14,113 nt of DNA from a virus. Taxonomy: Duplodnaviria > Heunggongvirae > Uroviricota > Caudoviricetes. Both the position numbers and the translations under genes were made by a program. Shown one piece after another: positions 1,435 through 14,113 of the stretch; positions within the stretch are counted from its first letter, which is position 1, and each line of letters opens with the position of its first letter. The DNA is taken from the IMG/VR virus record IMGVR_UViG_2778261687_000004, positions 1 to 14,113 of that record; one strand, given 5' to 3'. A model generated the notes under the pieces. That model worked only from the letters and a program-made list of their open reading frames with translations. It had not been told where the DNA came from and made no database searches.

Positions 1435-1641
1435 CTTCATTTTCACTTTTTTAAATCCAACGACAGACGGCTGGCATTTAAGTATTGTGAAATATTATCA
1501 AATGTAATCATCATTGATTTACAAAAGATACATTTTGCCCCGAAAGGATTCATGTCAGAAACATCAAAAGATGATGTTCTATACTGGGAACCATGACAAC
1601 ACGGGCATCTAAAGTGAATATGGTTTGTAATATTGTCTACC

Positions 1642-1854
1642 TCAAAGCGCCACTACATGAACAGCGGCAGGACCTTTAGGTCCGTTCTCAATACCAAATT
1701 CAACTTCCTGATTCTCAGTTAATGTTTTGAAATCGTTGCTCTGAATTGCTGAGAAATGGACAAACACATCTTTGCTGCCATCTTTCGGCGTGATGAAACC
1801 AAAACCTTTTTCAGGGTTAAACCATTTCACTAAACCAGTCATTTTGTTAGACAT
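1642..1854 (-). CDS. cspI: Cold-shock protein, CspA family (70 aa)
   Basis: [38 protein letters not shown]... contains the canonical cold-shock domain RNP motifs (KGFGFI, VFVHF). Paralog assignment is by synteny next to the lysis cassette. Confidence 0.88.
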
Positions 1855-2216
1855 AATTATTACCTTTTGAAGAAATTAGCCCTTGGGCAGAATGGTCCGA
1901 AAAAAAATATCAGAGAGAAAAACCAACAAGGAAATCTCAAGAGGTACAAATAATAAAATTATAACAATGACTGCTTCAGATAAATTTGTAACAAACCAGA
2001 ACACCATTAACGCATGATTAACCACCCATAGCAAGGATTACTTTTGTAAAGAAAAACACAGCAATGAAAGAATAGCTTTATTTATTAATAAAACGTGTCA
2101 TTCTGATTAAGACCTTTTATCTTACCCTTAAGATTTCAGGAATTTTGGCTCATGGAAGAGTCCTTTTTATTTAAATTTTACATTCCGCGATGTAAATGTT
2201 CCGATTTAATATTACC

Positions 2217-4220: not shown

Positions 4221-4243
4221 AAAAAACCCGCCTGAGCGGGTTT
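4221..4243. terminator. Bidirectional intrinsic terminator between convergent ynfU-like (+) and cspB (-)
   Basis: A6-CCCGC-CTGA-GCGGG-TTT; on the minus strand the stem is followed by U6. Confidence 0.6.
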
Positions 4244-4524
4244 GAGATTGTGGTGCTTTTTGTGGGAGTCATCCACTTACGCACTTTGTTTTGCCATGCC
4301 AGCAGTTAGCTTCTGCTGTAAAACTATTCATGCAGCAAACCTGCACTTCACCACAATGGTTAGCATACTTTTCCTGATTAAGATTTTGCCAAATATGCTA
4401 GCCATTGTTTCATGTATTGGACCTCCTTACTTTTTATTAAAGAGATCCAATATTCACTACTCTGTCCGTATCTCTACTCAGGCATCAGCCTTCTTCGTTA
4501 TCGTATACAGACGAGCGATGAATT

Positions 4525-4740
4525 TTAATCAGTAATGATGACATTTGCTGCTGCAGGACCTTTAGCACCACTCTCTATAGAGAAGGTAACCTTTTGACCT
4601 TCAAATAAGGTTCGATAATTATCATTCTGAATCGCAGAAAAATGCACAAACACATCTTTACTACCATCAACAGGAGAAATAAAGCCGAAACCTTTATCAG
4701 CGTTAAACCATTTTACTAAACCAGTCATTTTATTTGACAT
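4525..4740 (-). CDS. cspB: Cold-shock protein, CspA family (71 aa)
   Basis: [67 protein letters not shown]...; RBS AAGGAA; long 5' leader. Confidence 0.88.
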
Positions 4741-4757
4741 TCTACATTCCTTAACTT

Positions 4758-4769
4758 GAGCCTTTCGGC
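4758..4769 (-). promoter_or_regulatory. csp 5'-UTR 'upstream box'-like element (GCCGAAAGGCTC) just 5' of the cspB SD
   Basis: Minus strand reads ATGCCGAAAGGCTCAAGTTAAGGAATGTAGA-ATG. This is one mismatch from the cspA-family upstream-box consensus GCCGAAAGGCACA as I recall it. Confidence 0.5.
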
Positions 4770-5040
4770 ATAAATGGTTTGCATAACAGAAACGACTTCG
4801 TACTTAATTGGAGAGACTCAAAGAAGGAATAAGTGAATAACACCTGAAATGAGAACTGCTTTAGTAAACTACTTCGTATATCGTCTGTTCTTCAAACCGA
4901 CGCAATCATTAACGCATAGTTGAACATATGAAGCAATGTTTATTTTAGACATCCAGCCATCTTCAACCCCATCAAAAAACTATAGCTTTCTTCAGGAACG
5001 TGTGTATAGTGCGCCAAGTTATCAGTATTAAGGAATTTTT

Positions 5041-5397: not shown

Positions 5398-5548
5398 TAA
5401 GCAGACTCATTGTGTTTAGGGACATTGTACTGGAAGAAAACATTTTAAACATCAGGCAAATAACCAAGTCACCAGCTAAATAATAAGTTAACAGACATGA
5501 GTCCCGGGATGAGATTCAACATTACCATTGCCCCATTTAAAGCACAAA

Positions 5549-5569
5549 ACCCGCTCATCAGCGGGTTTT
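5549..5569. terminator. Bidirectional intrinsic terminator between cspF-side (+) and quuQ (-) transcription
   Basis: AAAA-ACCCGCT-CATC-AGCGGGT-TTT: 7-bp GC-rich stem, 4-nt loop, A-tract before and T-tract after. Confidence 0.6.
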
Positions 5570-6440: not shown

Positions 6441-7325
6441 TTACGCCAGTACGCCAATTGCCAGCGCGCGATCGATAAAACGAAATATCAGCTCCAGTTG
6501 AGAGCCATACTTATCTTCAAATGCCACTGTATCCGTATGCAGCTCGTTGTGATGCTTTCTGCACAAAGGCAACACAAAGAGATCATGTGCTTTTGTTCCC
6601 ATTCCGCCCTGCCCGTGACCAATCAGATGATGCGGATCGTCGGCTGGCATACCGCAGCAAGCACACGGCTGTGTCTTAACCCAACGTGTGTATTTCTCCT
6701 TAACCCAGCGGCGACGTTTAGGCAGCTTCATGAAAGATTCCGGAGACTCTGGATCAACGGTGATGCTTACCACCGTCTTTTCCTGTGGTGATTTTTGTTG
6801 CTGGTGGGCGTAAGGCAACGGTGCAAGATTTTTTGTGCGTTGTTTCAATATGCTGGTGGCGGTCTGCTCTCCCGGTACGATGTCGCTTTCGCGGTACACC
6901 GAGCAGATTTTTTCCGCTGGTAATCCCAGCGAACGACGCGATACAGCCTCAGGTAGTGCATCCACCACCTGATTGCAGACCGCCCACCAGGATAATTCAG
7001 CCAAAGATAATTCCCGCTCCTGCGTACCGCTTATTGCGTGACGGATGACGTCAATCACCCATGCTGTCAGATTTTGTTGAGCAAGCAGCTCCAGTGATTC
7101 CGATGTCTGGTCACGCAGTTGGTTGTCGCAGTGCCAGCACAACACCATTGCGCCGGTACCATAACGGTGAATGACTGTTTCAGTGTGATGGTAATCGCCA
7201 TTAGGCCACTGGCAGGATGTAACATGACGTAATAGCCAGTCGGACAATGCGCCAACCCGCGCCTGCGGTAAGAATGAATCAGCCATTCGGCCTGTTCTGC
7301 AGTGCATGGAGGGTGCTGGAACCAT
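6441..7325 (-). CDS. ydfU: DUF968-family prophage protein with C-terminal HNH/zinc-finger-like motif (YdfU-like); probably the 3' portion of a frameshifted gene
   Basis: 294-aa ORF; C-terminus CACCGMPADDPHHLIGHGQGGMGTKAHDLFVLPLCRKHHNELH. Its ATG is immediately preceded by an in-frame TGA and has no SD. Confidence 0.8.
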   Translation of the reverse strand: MVPAPSMHCRTGRMADSFLPQARVGALSDWLLRHVTSCQWPNGDYHHTETVIHRYGTGAMVLCWHCDNQLRDQTSESLELLAQQNLTAWVIDVIRHAISGTQERELSLAELSWWAVCNQVVDALPEAVSRRSLGLPAEKICSVYRESDIVPGEQTATSILKQRTKNLAPLPYAHQQQKSPQEKTVVSITVDPESPESFMKLPKRRRWVKEKYTRWVKTQPCACCGMPADDPHHLIGHGQGGMGTKAHDLFVLPLCRKHHNELHTDTVAFEDKYGSQLELIFRFIDRALAIGVLA

Positions 7326-7414
7326 TCAGACTTGAATGCGTGAGAATACCGCCCGTGCGTGCAGGCAAGAACGGGCGAATTATCAGAATTGTAATATTTT
7401 GCGTTGCGTGCCAT
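7067..7414 (-). CDS. ORF with good RBS that overlaps ydfU in another frame; likely the true 5' end of ydfU (frameshift near 7250-7260) or, less likely, a separate overlapping gene
   Basis: ATG 7414 preceded by CCGGAGAAAACCG. The first ~50 aa look protein-like (MARNAKYYNSDNSPVLACTHGRYSHAFKSEWFQHPPCTAEQAEWLIHSY...); the remainder is low-complexity (C/W/T-rich) while the ydfU frame becomes protein-like at the same point. Confidence 0.35.
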   Translation of the reverse strand: MARNAKYYNSDNSPVLACTHGRYSHAFKSEWFQHPPCTAEQAEWLIHSYRRRGLAHCPTGYYVMLHPASGLMAITITLKQSFTVMVPAQWCCAGTATTNCVTRHRNHWSCLLNKI

Positions 7415-7752
7415 CGGTTTTCTCCGGTGGCACGGTGTTACTCAGCGGGAGTTCAGCCCCGCGCAAGATTGTAGATGAGTTTATTCTCCTGAAAAAGCAG
7501 AAAAGCCAGCTTTTATTCCGATCTCTTTCAATGCCTGTAATGAAGTGACAAACTCACCTTCGCGCAAGATAAATCCGTCCGTGACCTGACCTGTCGATAA
7601 AGGAACGTAACACGTTTTATGCAACACCCGCATGCGGCAGAAAATTATTGCCGAACGTTTACCCCTGTCAACAAGCTTTACTTTCTGAGGCGCGCCAGCC
7701 CGCGAGGAAAACAATCTGAACATCAAACAATTAATGACACAAGAAATACGAT

Positions 7753-8571: not shown

Positions 8572-9885
8572 TCAATCTTTTTTATCGGGATCAGGCTTCT
8601 TTTTAGGTAACTTCGGGGGCTTAACTTGCTGATGACTTTGCGTTCGGCGCGTAAGCCAGGGATGGTCAGCTTTAGGTTTAACATAGTATTTTGAGCGTAA
8701 ATCAATACGGGCATTATCCACTCGTTCATGGACACTCTTTTCATCATCCAGTGGTATAGGCTCCGGGCCATCAACATACTTTTCCCAGCCCAGCGCTTTC
8801 CCGTCATACAGAACGTTAATTTCACCGTCAAAGTTCTCGCATACAGTAACAACCGAATGCCTAAGTCGATATCCCCGGCCCTCACTGCGTACCTGAAACG
8901 CACTGCTTTTGTACTGGAAAGTGAGATTTTTAGACAGAACGCGCTTCGCCTGTAGGCTGAAGATATAACCCAGTTCCTCTTCAGAATGGTGCACATCAAG
9001 ATGAGCATTATCAGTAGTACGAGGCGACGTAGCGAACCGGTTGTTATAGGCTTCAATAAAGGTCGGCAACCATGCATTTGCTGTTTCAATATCACTGATA
9101 TTCTGAAGCCGCATTTCTTTGACCAGCCTGTCCTGTAGTGTCTGATTGGCGCGCTCTACCCGCCCTTTTGCCTGCGGGCTGTTGGCATGGATTGGCTCGA
9201 TGCCCAGTGTCTTTATCGCACGAGTGAACTGGGTCAGCTCACCTTCCCGCTCTGGGTTATTTACCCTGAATATACTGTGTCTATCAGAGTAGAGAGCGAG
9301 CGGTACGCCATGATCATTAAGGTAACCCCGGAGGGTTTCCATGTAAGCCCGGGTTGTTTCAGCAGGCACAAAACGCAACGCCATCAACGCACTGGTGGCA
9401 TCATCAATGAAAACGATCAGTGTACATCTGGGGCCTCGATTTTCAAACCAGTCATGAGGTGAGCCATCAATCTGGATCAGTTCACCGTAAGATGGTCGTC
9501 GCATGCGGCGTTGATATATACGGGCAATTTTACGACGGCGTTCACGCCATAACCCCTCTTCTATCATCCACTTTCTGAGAGTTTCAACGGATAAAGATAA
9601 ACCGTGTATCTCGCGCAATTTTTCGCACGCAAACGTAGGTCCAAAATCAGCGTAACGGCCTTTGAGGAGTGAAATTACTGTTGCTCTGAATTCAGTAGAA
9701 AAGGAATTATTAGGACGCTTTCCACGTCGGTGGGAAACCAGACCAGAAGGCCCTTCATTTCTATACCGTTGCACCAGACGTTTAACCTGCCGAATAGAAA
9801 TGCCAATGCGTGCCGCAGCTTGTTCCTGAATAATCTGAAGTCGGTGGAGTTCCTTATGACTCATCGTAACAGTCTCTTTGATCAT
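8572..9885 (-). CDS. Transposase-like protein, N-terminal HTH plus DDE/rve integrase-core domain and C-terminal extension (437 aa); probably IS481-family-like, family not verified
   Basis: N-terminal HTH (GISIRQVKRLVQRYRNEGPSGLVSHRRGKRPNN); D residues in LIQIDGSPHDWF and VFIDDATS; HANSPQAKGRVERANQTLQDRL resembles the retroviral-integrase-type E motif. RBS TGGGGGAT upstream of ATG 9885. Confidence 0.8.
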   Translation of the reverse strand: MIKETVTMSHKELHRLQIIQEQAAARIGISIRQVKRLVQRYRNEGPSGLVSHRRGKRPNNSFSTEFRATVISLLKGRYADFGPTFACEKLREIHGLSLSVETLRKWMIEEGLWRERRRKIARIYQRRMRRPSYGELIQIDGSPHDWFENRGPRCTLIVFIDDATSALMALRFVPAETTRAYMETLRGYLNDHGVPLALYSDRHSIFRVNNPEREGELTQFTRAIKTLGIEPIHANSPQAKGRVERANQTLQDRLVKEMRLQNISDIETANAWLPTFIEAYNNRFATSPRTTDNAHLDVHHSEEELGYIFSLQAKRVLSKNLTFQYKSSAFQVRSEGRGYRLRHSVVTVCENFDGEINVLYDGKALGWEKYVDGPEPIPLDDEKSVHERVDNARIDLRSKYYVKPKADHPWLTRRTQSHQQVKPPKLPKKKPDPDKKD

Positions 9886-9973
9886 GAAAAATCCCCCAGA
9901 GAATTGTCTGGGGACATTTTAGAATGGTTCAAAGGGGACATTACAGCTTGGTGTTAACAATAGCCTGCTTCTC

Positions 9974-9989
9974 CGTGCCTTTCGGCACG
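9974..9989 (-). other. GNRA-tetraloop hairpin (CGTGCC-GAAA-GGCACG) resembling a csp 'upstream box', followed by SD-like GGAGAAG, with no nearby start codon
   Basis: Minus strand reads ACGTGCCGAAAGGCACGGAGAAGCAGGC; GCCGAAAGGCAC matches the cspA-family upstream-box consensus as I recall it. Confidence 0.4.
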
Positions 9990-10219
9990 TAAGAGGCTAA
10001 CCTACATGTGTCTAGCATGAAATTGGCCTCAGATTAATGTTAAGCGTCTTGCAGGACGCGTAATGTTAACTGGGGCTTTTCTCTATCTGCCGTTGGTGTC
10101 CATGCCCGAGGCAGATAGCCTCAAGCACCCGCAGTCATTCTACTTAACTAAGATTTCCCCGCAAACCGTTTTTGTCCAGCACAGTAAATATCCAACTAAA
10201 CCAATGGAGTTCGCTGTAT

Positions 10220-10399: not shown

Positions 10400-11016
10400 T
10401 ATTCCTCCTACAATCAATGTGCAATTACATTTAAACACACCTCAATTTGGCCGGACATATAAATATCTAAACCAGAAAAAATCACTTACATAGCGTTACA
10501 AACTCTTTAGTCTAAAGGTTCATCGTAAAACATTCCCCATACTTATCAGTCCGTTCCGCGCCAGGTAGCTCATTGCCTTATCTGGCAACCTGTAATCAGG
10601 TTTCCGCTTTTTCAGTTGGCTGGTCGTTTAACCGACATAGTTAATCCATTAATCTAGTTGCCGGATGTTGGTGGATTTTCGCGTTTTAGTTGTTCATAAA
10701 AGTGCACAGCTTTAACCAGTTCTTCTGATGTAACTGGGACTGGTGAGGCAGTGAATAAGGCCTGAATTTGATAGTTCGGCCTGTCGTTACAATCCTCTTT
10801 TTTCGGTACATATTTCCAGTCACCAGACCACTACTTCCCCTGAAAGTCCGTAACGCCTTTTTTCACGTAGCGATATCGCCATGCCACTGGTTTTGCTTGC
10901 CCCGCCGTTTCATGCCCTTCCTGATAATTAATCTCGCTCATTCATCGCCCCACTCATCACAATATGCTTCGACCGGAGTTTTTCCCGCTTCATAGTCATC
11001 ACGCTAGGATTCGACA

Positions 11017-11316
11017 TCAGCAGCACTTCCACCGCGTAGCCTCCATAATTGCAGGCACTAGCGCCGTGAACTTTTCACGCTTATCCCTGGTGTCGATAGC
11101 CTTCCAGCGTTCAAATATCTTCACTCGATTAACGCCAAGCGCTCGCTGATCAATCGCGCCACCTTCATATGTGACACGCTGAACATCGATGTTCGGGCGC
11201 TCTTTCAAAGCCCAGAATGCTTCAGTGATTAATATCGTCGCCTGCTCCTGTGTCATTCCTGGTCGACATATCCAGGCATCCAGAGCCTCACGAGCCTGTT
11301 CAGGAGTGATTTTCAT
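11017..11316 (-). CDS. Hypothetical 99-aa protein immediately downstream of dicC, overlapping it by 17 nt (ydfX position)
   Basis: ORF MKITPEQAREALDAWICRPGMTQEQATILITEAFWALKERPNIDVQRV...; the dicC stop (11300-11302) lies inside it in another frame. Weak SD. Confidence 0.5.
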   Translation of the reverse strand: MKITPEQAREALDAWICRPGMTQEQATILITEAFWALKERPNIDVQRVTYEGGAIDQRALGVNRVKIFERWKAIDTRDKREKFTALVPAIMEATRWKCC

Positions 11317-11530
11317 TGTTCAACCGCCCCGCCCGCTTCGTCTTACGATATTCATCATAAACTTTGGGATCATACTGAAGCTCCCCGCCAGATGCCTCCT
11401 GTAGACGCATCGCGCGACCTTCGGGAACTAAATCCCCTTTCCAGCTATAAAGCGAAGCCAAACGAATACCTGCTGCTTGTGCAAGTTTTGTTTTTGAACC
11501 GAAATACAAAAGAGCGTCAGTTTTAAGCAT
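11300..11530 (-). CDS. dicC: Cro-like repressor of the division-inhibition operon, DicC (76 aa)
   Basis: MLKTDALLYFGSKTKLAQAAGIRLASLYSWKGDL... has an HTH; divergent from dicA across an operator-containing intergenic region; RBS AAGGTG. Confidence 0.85.
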   Translation of the reverse strand: MLKTDALLYFGSKTKLAQAAGIRLASLYSWKGDLVPEGRAMRLQEASGGELQYDPKVYDEYRKTKRAGRLNNENHS

Positions 11531-11544
11531 TTAAAACACCTTTA

Positions 11545-11564
11545 TTGTTAGTCATAACTAACAA
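11545..11564. promoter_or_regulatory. Perfect 20-bp palindromic operator candidate in the dicC-dicA divergent promoter region
   Basis: TTGTTAGT-CATA-ACTAACAA (11545-11564); a second, imperfect related site around 11597-11616 (TTAGCATTAGCTAACTA). Confidence 0.6.
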
Positions 11565-11613
11565 GATAGATGTTAACAAAAACATAGTCAATACGATTTA
11601 GCATTAGCTAACT

Positions 11614-12021
11614 ATGGAAACAAAAAATTTAACTATCGGCGAACGCATCAGGTATCGTCGGAAAAACCTCAAACACACCCAAAGGTCTCTTGCTAAAGCC
11701 CTGAAAATCTCCCATGTGTCTGTATCACAATGGGAACGGGGTGATAGTGAACCTACAGGGAAGAACCTTTTTGCCCTCAGCAAAGTATTGCAATGCTCAC
11801 CAACATGGATTCTATTTGGCGATGAAGACAAGCAACCAACACCACCTGTTGAGAAGCCAGTTGCCTTATCCCCCAAAGAACTAGAGCTCCTTGAGCTGTT
11901 TAATGCACTGCCAGAATCAGAACAGGATACCCAGCTCGCCGAAATGCGAGCTCGAGTAAAAAACTTCAATAAACTCTTTGAAGAATTACTAAAAGCCCGT
12001 CAGCGGACAAATAAAAGATAA
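11614..12021 (+). CDS. dicA: XRE-family HTH repressor DicA (135 aa), cI-like
   Basis: METKNLTIGERIRYRRKNLKHTQRSLAKALKISHVSVSQWERGDSEPTGKNLFALSKVL...: classic lambda-Cro/C1-type HTH. Confidence 0.88.
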   Translation: METKNLTIGERIRYRRKNLKHTQRSLAKALKISHVSVSQWERGDSEPTGKNLFALSKVLQCSPTWILFGDEDKQPTPPVEKPVALSPKELELLELFNALPESEQDTQLAEMRARVKNFNKLFEELLKARQRTNKR

Positions 12022-12187
12022 CATCATCAATGAGTTATCTTTTACCACATCAATTATGTTAGCTATAGCATACAAAATCACTTGACCGATATGTTAGTCA
12101 TGGCTAATCTTGTTTGCATCAACACACCGCACGGTGTTCTCAGCAAACAGTTCCGCTACCCCAGCGTTAAGGGGAAATGAGGTCAGC

Positions 12188-12343
12188 ATGGATACTATCG
12201 ATCTTGGCAACAACGAATCTCTGGTGTACGGCGTGTTTCCAAACCAGGACGGCACGTTCACCGCAATGACGTATACCAAAAGCAAAACGTTTAAAACCGA
12301 AAATGGTGCCCGTCGCTGGCTGGAAAGAAACTCAGGTGAGTGA
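12188..12343 (+). CDS. ydfA: Small prophage protein YdfA (51 aa)
   Basis: ATG 12188 with SD GAGG; MDTIDLGNNESLVYGVFPNQDGTFTAMTYTKSKTFKTENGARRWLERNSGE; first gene of the dicB operon. Confidence 0.75.
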   Translation: MDTIDLGNNESLVYGVFPNQDGTFTAMTYTKSKTFKTENGARRWLERNSGE

Positions 12344-13061: not shown

Positions 13062-13114
13062 TTTCTGGTGACGTTTGGCGGTATCAGTTTTACTCCGTGA
13101 CTGCTCTGCCGCCC
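13062..13114 (+). ncRNA. dicF: DicF small regulatory RNA (about 53 nt; ftsZ-targeting), processed from the dicB operon transcript
   Basis: TTTCTGGTGACGTTTGGCGGTATCAGTTTTACTCCGTGACTGCTCTGCCGCCC followed by TTTTT (13115-13119), between ydfC and dicB; recognised from memory of the DicF sequence; preceded by a GC-rich structured region. Confidence 0.8.
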
Positions 13115-13757: not shown

Positions 13758-14113
13758 ATGAGTAAAGTCTTTATTTGCGCCGCTATTCCTGACGAACTGG
13801 CAACAAGGGAAGAAGGCGCTGTGGCTGTAGCCACAGCCATTGAAGCTGGCGACGAACGCCGTGCTCGAGCAAAATTTCACTGGCAATTCCTGGAACATTA
13901 TCCGGCTGCTCAGGACTGCGCTTATAAATTTATTGTCTGCGAGGATAAACCTGGCATACCCCGCCCTGCCCTCGATTCATGGGATGCTGAATATATGCAG
14001 GAAAACCGCTGGGATGAGGAGTCTGCTTCTTTTGTCCCGGTTGAGACTGAATCCGATCCGATGAACGTCACTTTTGACAAGCTGGCCCCTGAAGTACAGA
14101 ACGCTGTCATGGT
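13758..14113 (+). CDS. ydfE: YdfE-like prophage protein, 5' portion (runs off the window end)
   Basis: ATG 13758 with SD GAGG; MSKVFICAAIPDELATREEGAVAVATAIEAGDERRARAKFHWQFLEHYPAAQDCAYKF...; no stop before the window end, so absent from the ORF track. Confidence 0.7.
   Translation, partial: MSKVFICAAIPDELATREEGAVAVATAIEAGDERRARAKFHWQFLEHYPAAQDCAYKFIVCEDKPGIPRPALDSWDAEYMQENRWDEESASFVPVETESDPMNVTFDKLAPEVQNAVM

What the first reader, a model, noticed from the sequence alone, without database searches (positions are those of the whole stretch)
11531..11613. dicC/dicA divergent control region with a perfect 20-bp palindrome
TTGTTAGT-CATA-ACTAACAA sits between the divergent repressor genes, the expected position of a DicA/DicC operator in a P22-like immunity switch. 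A second related but imperfect site lies next to the dicA start. dicA has no obvious SD, suggesting weak or atypical translation initiation.
Basis: partly seen in the sequence, partly recalled or inferred. Interest (0 to 1): 0.4.

Follow-up and report, generated by a model that had tools for sequence, protein, structure and literature searches.

The report
Known Qin prophage DicA operator Oc
The palindrome is the already published and tested DicA repressor binding site (operator Oc) of the E. coli Qin cryptic prophage, and the missing ribosome-binding site of dicA is explained by its documented leaderless mRNA, so the finding is correct but ordinary.

Summary
TTGTTAGT-CATA-ACTAACAA lies at 11545-11564 in the 83-bp spacer between dicC (-) and dicA (+) of the E. 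coli Qin prophage. This stretch is 100% identical to K-12. The repeat is not strictly perfect: the arms are 8 bp and perfect, but the CATA centre is only half symmetric.

The 20-mer is letter for letter the operator Oc that Yun et al. 2012 cloned. They showed in vivo that it binds DicA and that a single arm substitution (ACTaACAA to C) abolishes binding. Reg-Seq found the DicA repressor site at the dicC promoter again.

Oc covers about -8 to +12 of the dicC promoter. The second site (11596-11613) matches in position the predicted operator Oa, the counterpart of P22 OR3. It contains the -10 (TAGCAT) and the start site of dicA. Yun et al. found that DicA alone does not bind it.

dicA has no SD because its mRNA is leaderless: the mapped TSS is 3 nt before the ATG.

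My comparison with P22 immC and six other immunity types shows the same layout everywhere. Operator arms change together with the repressor recognition helix.

Verdict: already known, low interest. The one open point is how DicA at Oc "activates" dicA.

The parts
11300..11530 (-). dicC, the Cro-like repressor (76 aa)
   Evidence: ORF. RefSeq annotation. Pfam P22_Cro at 44.1 bits against a cut-off of 30.2. P22 Cro structure 1rzs at E 7e-6.
11537..11542 (-). dicC Shine-Dalgarno sequence: AAGGTG on the - strand, 6 nt before the ATG
   Evidence: Read directly from the sequence.
11545..11564 (.). Operator Oc: TTGTTAGT-CATA-ACTAACAA. The functional core is the 18-mer TGTTAGY-N4-RCTAACA at 11546-11563.
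   Evidence: Identical to the Oc cloned and tested by Yun et al. 2012. The outer 7 bp of each arm are nearly invariant in 28 natural haplotypes. The same position is kept in 7 homologous regions and in P22 OR1.
11563..11568 (-). dicC promoter -10 hexamer TATCTT. The dicC TSS is inferred at about 11556, in the centre of Oc.
   Evidence: Promoter scan. Yun et al. mapped the dicC 5' end by 5'RACE and state that the -11 A lies exactly 11 nt from it and that Oc overlaps the -10. I computed the TSS coordinate from that statement; I did not see the figure.
11586..11591 (-). dicC promoter -35 hexamer TTGACT (AGTCAA on the + strand)
   Evidence: Promoter scan. AGTCAA is invariant in all 8 aligned regions, including P22.
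11570..11589 (.). Candidate middle operator Om, at the P22 OR2 position. It has one good half-site (ATGTTAAC) and a degenerate other half.
   Evidence: A 2-mismatch dyad at 11569-11586 and a half-site hit at 11570-11577. Yun et al. report no DicA binding to Om tested alone. The exact published coordinates of Om were not available to me.
11596..11613 (.). Second dyad ATTTAGC-ATTA-GCTAACT, taken to be Oa at the P22 OR3 position, abutting the dicA ATG
   Evidence: P22 OR3, ATTTAAG-ATGA-CTTAACT, lies at the identical distance from the c2 ATG, centre -9.5. Nearly invariant in natural haplotypes. Not bound by DicA alone according to Yun et al.. Equating this dyad with the published 'Oa' rests on position.
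11599..11604 (+). Inferred dicA promoter -10 hexamer TAGCAT, inside the left half of Oa. No recognisable -35.
   Evidence: It spans -12 to -7 relative to the mapped TSS. A TAGNAT or TAAGAT hexamer sits at the same distance in all homologues and in P22, whose record places the PRM promoter there. Yun et al. found no obvious dicA promoter.
11611..11611 (+). dicA transcription start, giving a leaderless mRNA with a 3-nt leader (ACU-AUG)
   Evidence: Romero et al. 2014 Table S3 lists the TSS at 1645954 and the dicA start at 1645957, distance 3, confirmed by RLM-RT-PCR. I transferred this to the window by sequence identity. The first 26 nt of the mRNA are predicted unpaired.
11614..12021 (+). dicA, the C2-like repressor (135 aa), with an N-terminal HTH and a short non-peptidase C-terminal part
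   Evidence: Pfam HTH_3 at E 1e-16. P22 C2 N-terminal domain structures 1adr, 2r1j and 3jxb at E about 1e-19 over residues 7-71.
12057..12074 (.). Oc-like site TGTTAGC-TATA-GCATACA upstream of the dicB-operon promoter (PL-side operator)
   Evidence: 2 mismatches to the Oc-derived pattern. Repeat families D6 and I1.
12092..12109 (.). Oc-like site TGTTAGT-CATG-GCTAATC, between the candidate -35 TTGACC (12082-12087) and the -10 of the dicB-operon promoter. This is the P22 OL1 position.
   Evidence: P22 PL has cacTTGACC followed by an operator in the spacer in the same arrangement. Related sites occur downstream of dicA in Citrobacter and Serratia.

Best explanation
The 83-bp spacer is the OR-type control region of the Qin prophage immunity switch. 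It is homologous to P22 immC.

Shown by others:
- A DicA dimer binds the dyad Oc (11545-11564).
- A single arm substitution (ACTaACAA to C) abolishes that binding.
- DicA represses dicC. A ten-fold drop in dicA gives a 700-fold rise in dicC.
- DicA is needed for dicA promoter activity.

What follows from the positions:
- Oc spans about -8 to +12 of the strong dicC promoter (-35 TTGACT, -10 TATCTT). Bound DicA therefore blocks RNA polymerase there.
- dicA is transcribed from a weak promoter with a -10 TAGCAT and no -35. Its start lies 3 nt before the ATG, so the mRNA is leaderless and has no SD. This is like lambda cI from PRM and, by the record's annotation, like P22 c2.
- The second dyad (11596-11613, the OR3 position) overlaps that -10 and the start site.

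Inferred:
- The second dyad is the site through which DicC (Cro-like), or DicA at high concentration, shuts off dicA.
- The related sites at 12057-12074 and 12092-12109 are where DicA represses the dicB operon.
For: - Identity of the region. It is 100% identical to K-12 dicC-dicA over 11440-11720 and carries the RefSeq annotation.
- Published operator. Oc is given as TTGTTAGTCATAACTAACAA, with in vivo DicA binding, the point mutant, and mutations that cluster in Oc when the promoter region is cloned at high copy.
- dicC promoter and regulation. The dicC TSS was mapped by 5'RACE, Oc overlaps the -10, and DicA is required for dicA promoter activity. Reg-Seq classified the DicA site at dicC correctly.
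- Bistable switch genetics for DicA and DicC.
- Leaderless dicA with a 3-nt leader.
- Protein homology. The DicA N-terminal domain matches the P22 C2 N-terminal domain at E 8e-20. DicC matches P22 Cro.
- Layout. P22 OR1, OR2 and OR3 are centred at -57.5, -34.5 and -9.5 from the c2 ATG. The Qin sites are at -59.5, about -35 and -9.5. The P22 RM transcript starts 4 nt before the c2 ATG. AGTCAA is invariant across all regions.
- Covariation. The same recognition helix ISHVSVSQWER goes with the same half-site TGTTAGY in Qin, O26, Citrobacter and Serratia, even at 59-73% protein identity. Different helices go with different arms: CCTTAGR, ATTGAG, and ATTTAAG in P22.
- Natural variation. In 28 haplotypes the changes are concentrated at the inner arm position and the centre of Oc, and the outer 7 bp are essentially fixed.
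Against: - Nothing contradicts the identification of Oc.
- The published binding evidence I could read is in vivo, from a reporter and a titration assay. It is not a footprint, and no purified-protein footprint is in the papers I could read.
- The 1986 and 1988 Bejar papers that defined Oc, Om and Oa could not be read. My coordinates for Om and Oa are therefore inferred from position and from P22.
- DicA did not bind Om or Oa in isolation, so a lambda-style three-site cooperative scheme is not established.
- The dicA promoter gave no signal in Reg-Seq.
- Oc is centred at -56.5 from the dicA start. That position is neither the usual class II position nor one of the usual class I positions, so direct activation from Oc alone is not obviously workable (my inference).
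Confidence: 0.95

Rival explanations
1. This rival has the same parts but a different mechanism for autoregulation. DicA at Oc would not activate the dicA promoter by touching RNA polymerase. The apparent activation would be indirect, through two routes. First, the dicC and dicA promoters overlap back to back, so polymerase on the much stronger dicC promoter excludes polymerase from the dicA promoter. Repressing dicC at Oc removes that block. Second, without DicA the cell makes DicC, which shuts the dicA promoter at the OR3-like dyad.
For: - The dicC -35 (11586-11591) lies inside the spacer of the dicA promoter, which has its -10 at 11599-11604 and its TSS at 11611.
- A standard polymerase footprint on dicCp, about -55 to +20 by textbook knowledge, would cover 11536-11611.
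- Oc is centred at -56.5 from the dicA start, and Om, which sits in the OR2-like position, is degenerate and not bound alone.
- Yun's reporter test compared dicA+ and delta-dicA hosts in which chromosomal dicC was still present and derepressed.
- Overexpressed DicC represses dicA, as cited by Ragunathan et al..
Against: - Yun et al. interpret their data as direct activation, by analogy with lambda.
- In P22, lambda and 434 the repressor activates PRM directly. That is established knowledge which I did not test here.
- Cooperative filling of Om next to an occupied Oc has not been excluded.
Confidence: 0.35
2. The palindrome would be mainly a DicC (Cro) site, or a site for another factor such as H-NS/Cnu or YjdC, and DicA binding would be secondary.
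For: - Cro-type proteins share operators with their repressors.
- CnuK9E with H-NS antagonises DicA at Oc.
- YjdC shows ChIP-qPCR enrichment at the dic locus.
Against: - The operator-reporter phenotype depended on dicA and was restored by a dicA plasmid.
- The arms co-vary with the DicA-type recognition helix.
- These other factors are additional to DicA binding, not alternatives to it.
Confidence: 0.03
3. The inverted repeat would be a chance feature of AT-rich DNA, or would act as an RNA hairpin in the dicC leader.
For: One perfect 8+4+8 dyad somewhere in a 14-kb window is not rare (P about 0.27). The spacer is only 27% GC.
Against: - P is about 0.004 within this spacer.
- The half-site recurs at three further sites of the immunity region.
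- The dyad is conserved and co-varies across immunity types.
- There is published mutational evidence.
- The dicC transcript starts near the centre of the dyad, so the mRNA carries only one arm and cannot form the hairpin.
Confidence: 0.01

Closest known systems
Operator Oc of the E. coli K-12 Qin prophage dicA-dicC region (Bejar et al. 1986/1988; Yun et al. 2012, PMC3441716)
   Same: The 20-mer is identical, the flanking sequence is identical (100% over 281 bp), and the genes are the same. This is that element.
   Different: Nothing in the control region differs. Elsewhere the window's Qin copy differs from the complete genomes searched by deletions and an ISNCY element.
Salmonella phage P22 immC: OR1/OR2/OR3 between cro and c2, and OL1-3 at PL
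   Same: - The divergent repressor and cro genes are about 80 bp apart (80 bp in P22, 83 bp here).
- The operators are 18-bp dyads of 7+4+7.
- The strong cro-proximal site, the middle site and the site abutting the repressor ATG sit at nearly the same distances.
- The -35 of PR (AGTCAA) is invariant.
- The repressor transcript starts 3-4 nt before the ATG.
- The PL-side -35 is cacTTGACC with an operator in the spacer.
- The repressor N-terminal domain and Cro are homologous.
   Different: - The half-site is TGTTAGY rather than ATTTAAG/ATTAAAG, and the recognition helix is SHVSVSQ rather than SNVAISQ.
- The middle site is a perfect dyad in P22 but degenerate here.
- DicA has 135 aa and lacks the RecA-cleavable C-terminal domain of the 216-aa C2. 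It is controlled by the antirepressor Rem and by temperature.
Phage lambda OR with the leaderless cI mRNA from PRM
   Same: It has the same bistable two-repressor logic, and the repressor mRNA starts at or next to its AUG.
   Different: There is no sequence homology of the operators. The lambda spacer is longer and its operators are 17 bp, which I state from general knowledge and did not test here.

Membership tests
Published Qin operator Oc | Sequence 5'TTGTTAGTCATAACTAACAA between dicC and dicA | tested here: met
   Window 11545-11564 is identical to the operator cloned in pHL1105. The surrounding 281 bp are 100% identical to K-12.
Published Qin operator Oc | Sequence-specific binding of DicA | not testable with these tools
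   Shown in vivo by Yun et al. 2012, including the point mutant. Supported here only indirectly, by covariation with the recognition helix and by natural variation.
P22-type lambdoid immunity region (immC) | Divergent repressor and cro genes separated by a short spacer that carries both promoters | tested here: met
   dicC (-) and dicA (+) are 83 bp apart. P22 cro and c2 are 80 bp apart.
P22-type lambdoid immunity region (immC) | Repressor DNA-binding domain homologous to the P22 C2 N-terminal domain, and partner homologous to P22 Cro | tested here: met
   C2 N-terminal domain structures match at E 8e-20 over DicA residues 7-71. Pfam P22_Cro scores 44.1 bits against a cut-off of 30.2, and 1rzs matches at E 7e-6.
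P22-type lambdoid immunity region (immC) | Three 18-bp dyad operators in the spacer at OR1/OR2/OR3 positions | tested here: inconclusive
   The OR1-like site (Oc, 0 mismatches) and the OR3-like site (1 mismatch) are present at matching distances. The OR2-like site has only one good half-site. DicA did not bind Om or Oa alone.
P22-type lambdoid immunity region (immC) | A second operator set at the leftward early promoter beyond the repressor gene | tested here: met
   Two Oc-like sites lie at 12057-12074 and 12092-12109, around a TTGACC -35 that aligns with P22 PL. Ragunathan et al. speak of three operators there; I located two.
P22-type lambdoid immunity region (immC) | SOS-cleavable repressor (C-terminal S24 peptidase-like domain with an Ala-Gly site) | tested here: not met
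   DicA has 135 aa and only HTH-family Pfam hits. C2 has 216 aa. The literature states that the cleavage site is absent and that control is by the antirepressor Rem. DicA is therefore a short, non-cleavable variant of the C2 family, as already described.
Leaderless repressor mRNAs of temperate phages (lambda cI type) | Transcription start at or within a few nt of the start codon, with no SD | tested here: met
   No SD is present in the sequence. The published TSS is 3 nt upstream and was confirmed by RLM-RT-PCR. dicA is listed among the known leaderless genes. The same SD-less geometry is seen in all 7 homologues. The mapping itself is from the literature, not done here.

The most novel reading that the evidence does not exclude
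The published 'autoactivation' of dicA by DicA bound at Oc may not be a lambda-like protein contact. It may instead be relief of promoter occlusion, together with relief of DicC repression at the OR3-like dyad. The occlusion would arise because the strong dicC promoter physically overlaps the weak, -35-less, leaderless dicA promoter. On this reading a single functional DicA operator in the spacer would be enough to build a bistable switch, without the three-site cooperative scheme of lambda or P22.
Probability: 0.3. Interest if true: 0.3.

Novelty: already known. Interest (0 to 1): 0.07.

Why it matters
It matters little as a discovery. The operator, its binding protein, the switch it belongs to and the leaderless nature of dicA are all published. 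[quoted passage not shown] The only scientifically open point is mechanistic. It is unclear how a short C2-like repressor, which binds only one of three predicted sites on its own, both represses dicC and sustains its own expression. The role of the ATG-abutting dyad is also unsettled.

Tried and rejected
- The two founding papers (Bejar et al. 1986, PMID 3532030 / PMC311701) are not held. The original Oc, Om and Oa coordinates could not be read, so Om and Oa were placed by position and by comparison with P22.
- The search for related loci in genome contigs gave only 6 loci, of which 3 were useful. The viral-contig scan returned 80 loci that were all 93-100% identical. That set was useful for natural variation but not for deep divergence.
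- The sigma-70 scan found only the dicC promoter. It found no dicA promoter and no dicB promoter at its thresholds. This agrees with the published difficulty in seeing a dicA promoter.
- The RNA-hairpin reading of the palindrome was rejected because the dicC transcript starts inside the dyad.
- Chance origin was rejected for the reasons given above.
- The supplement of the kasugamycin paper had no further dicA details.
- An Rfam scan gave nothing in the control region.

Full report
**What is there**

Window 11000-12300 is the dicC-dicA-ydfA segment of the E. coli Qin cryptic prophage (megablast; K-12 annotation). The stretch 11440-11720 is 100% identical to K-12 MG1655, BW25113 and many other strains.
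- dicC runs 11300-11530 on the - strand.
- dicA runs 11614-12021 on the + strand.
- The spacer is 11531-11613, 83 bp, 27% GC.
- The reported repeat TTGTTAGT-CATA-ACTAACAA is at 11545-11564.

The 8-bp arms of the repeat are perfectly complementary. The centre CATA is only half symmetric, so the 20-mer is not strictly a perfect palindrome. In a Citrobacter homologue the centre is CATG and the palindrome is perfect.

**Chance**

A perfect 8+4+8 dyad is expected 0.3 times per simulated window, but only with P about 0.004 in this spacer. The Oc-derived pattern TGTTAGYNNNNRCTAACA at up to 3 mismatches gives 6 hits against 2.06 expected. Four of the six lie within 570 bp: 11546, 11596, 12057 and 12092. 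The half-site WTGTTARY occurs 13 times against 5.5 expected, with six hits in the immunity region.

**Published identity**

Yun et al. 2012 (PMC3441716) give the operator Oc as 5'TTGTTAGTCATAACTAACAA, letter for letter the window sequence. Their findings:
- Cloning the dicA-dicC promoter region at high copy selected point mutations clustered in Oc.
- Oc placed before an rpsL reporter gave dicA-dependent repression.
- A single A-to-C change (ACTaACAA, window 11560) abolished that repression.
- Two further predicted operators, Om and Oa, were not bound by DicA when tested alone.

They also mapped the dicC 5' end by 5'RACE and noted that Oc overlaps the dicC -10. They saw no obvious dicA promoter, and showed that dicA promoter activity requires DicA. 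Reg-Seq recovered the DicA repressor site at dicC but saw no active dicA promoter (PMC7567609). Ragunathan et al. 2023 (PMC10448788) describe DicA and DicC as a functional bistable switch with three operator sequences in each of the two control regions. They note that DicA is short, is not RecA-cleavable, and is countered by the antirepressor Rem.

**Geometry**

The only sigma-70-like promoter found by the scan is on the - strand: TTGACT at 11591-11586, a 17-nt spacer, then TATCTT at 11568-11563. From Yun's statement that the -11 A is exactly 11 nt from the start, the dicC TSS is about 11556. Oc therefore spans about -8 to +12. I calculated this; I did not see the figure. The dicC mRNA would then have a leader of about 26 nt with the SD AAGGTG (11542-11537).

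**dicA initiation**

There is indeed no SD before the dicA ATG, and the explanation is published. dicA is one of five leaderless mRNAs that Romero et al. 2014 found in E. coli. Its TSS is at 1645954 and the start codon at 1645957, a distance of 3 nt, confirmed by RLM-RT-PCR (PMC4681348). It is listed again as a known leaderless gene in PMC8794815.

Transferred to the window, the TSS is 11611. The hexamer at -12 to -7 is then TAGCAT (11599-11604), with no acceptable -35. The first 26 nt of the transcript are predicted unpaired.

**Comparison with P22**

The DicA N-terminal domain matches the P22 C2 N-terminal domain structures at E about 1e-19. DicC matches Pfam P22_Cro above its cut-off and the P22 Cro structure.

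In the annotated P22 record the cro-c2 spacer is 80 bp and carries OR1-3. The RM transcript starts 4 nt before the c2 ATG.

Site centres, measured from the repressor ATG:

| Site position | P22 | Qin |
|---|---|---|
| OR1 / Oc | -57.5 | -59.5 |
| OR2 / Om | -34.5 | about -35 (degenerate site) |
| OR3 / Oa | -9.5 | -9.5 |

P22 OR3 (ATTTAAGATGACTTAACT-ATG) and the Qin site (ATTTAGCATTAGCTAACT-ATG) are visibly homologous. So is the AGTCAA that forms the -35 of the cro-side promoter. On the other side of dicA, cacTTGACC followed by an Oc-like site parallels P22 PL/OL1.

**Other immunity types**

I collected six other dicC-dicA-type regions:
- E. coli O26:H11
- Citrobacter (DicA 73% identical)
- Serratia (59-64% identical)
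- a Rac-type prophage
- PPompW
- mEp460

All of them keep the strongest dyad next to the cro-like gene, centred -57.5 to -59.5 from the repressor ATG. All keep an invariant AGTCAA, and none has an SD before the repressor ATG. Most also show a weaker dyad abutting that ATG; in PPompW and mEp460 it fell below the scan threshold.

The arms change with the recognition helix:

| Recognition helix | Half-site | Found in |
|---|---|---|
| ISHVSVSQWER | TGTTAGY | Qin, O26, Citrobacter, Serratia |
| VAHVTISQWER | TGTTAGR or CCTTAGR | Rac-type, PPompW |
| VSGSSISLWES | ATTGAG | mEp460 |
| VSNVAISQWER | ATTTAAG | P22 |

**Natural variation**

Among 78 near-identical loci from viral contigs there are 28 haplotypes of the 83-bp spacer.
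- Changes concentrate in the dicC leader, at arm position 8 and its symmetric partner (position 13), in the 4-bp centre, and at the base just outside Oc.
- The outer 7 bp of each arm are essentially fixed.
- 11566-11613 (Om, both promoters, Oa) is almost invariant.
- The outermost base pair of the 20-mer varies, so the functional unit is the 18-mer TGTTAGY-N4-RCTAACA.

**Mechanism and what stays open**

Shown by others:
- DicA binds Oc.
- DicA represses dicC and the dicB operon.
- dicA promoter activity depends on DicA.
- dicA mRNA is leaderless.
- DicC is needed to stabilise the induced state.

Inferred here:
- The OR3-like dyad is the place where DicC, or excess DicA, turns dicA off, because it covers the -10 and the start.
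- The dicC and dicA promoters overlap. The dicC -35 lies in the dicA promoter spacer, so polymerase binding is mutually exclusive.

Oc is centred at -56.5 from the dicA start, and Om is degenerate and unbound on its own. The reported autoactivation could therefore be indirect, through relief of occlusion and of DicC repression, rather than a lambda-like contact. I rate this at about 0.3-0.35. The reporter experiments I could read do not separate the two possibilities.

**Verdict**

The element is already known and has been tested experimentally, so interest is low.

Noticed in passing
window 12118-12185: The leader downstream of the dicB-operon promoter (CATCAAcACACCGCACGGTGTTCTCAGCAAACAGTTCCGCTACCCCAGCGTTAAGGGGAAATGAG) is almost identical in Qin, O26, PPompW and mEp460, although their operators and repressors differ. 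It contains a small hairpin ACACC-GCAC-GGTGT and a second one, CCCC-N8-GGGG. It may be a nutL-like or RNA-processing element. I did not see it described in the papers I read.
   Followed up: partly
window 9959-10130 (-): Rfam sok antitoxin RNA hit (104 bits against a gathering score of 59), right next to the ISNCY transposase ORF (8572-9885). The corresponding stretch in the RefSeq genome EC17CM13 has no annotated feature.
   Followed up: no
window 13063-13114 (+): DicF sRNA (Rfam RF00039, 76.7 bits), as expected downstream in the dicB operon.
   Followed up: no
window 7254-7586, about 7581, and about 11037-11047: No complete E. coli genome among the best-ranked matches covers the window in one piece. 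Relative to strain EC17CM13 the window lacks about 350 bp near ydfU, about 1.4 kb (part of rem, hokD, relBE, part of ydfV) and about 2.5 kb (replication genes and most of the YdaT-like gene). This leaves the truncated 99-aa YdaT-like ORF at 11017-11316 that overlaps the end of dicC.
   Followed up: partly
window 1615-2000 (-) and 4509-4901 (-): Two cspA-type thermoregulator 5' UTR hits. Judged by collinearity with EC17CM13, they belong to the Qin cold-shock genes cspI and cspB.
   Followed up: no
window 4224-4243, 5546-5569, 13818-13837: Perfect GC-rich inverted repeats (AAACCCGC..GCGGGTTT twice, and GCTGTGGC-TGTA-GCCACAGC). The first two look like intrinsic terminators near the csp genes. The third lies further downstream in the dicB operon.
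   Followed up: no
L009 (phage mEp460) 886-905: In mEp460 the dyad abutting the repressor ATG (TTATTAAGATATCTAAATA) resembles a P22-type operator half-site (ATTTAAG) rather than that phage's own strong dyad (ATTGAG-TTTT-CTCAAT). This suggests that the ATG-proximal site is constrained by its promoter role (-10 TAAGAT) more than by repressor specificity.
   Followed up: partly
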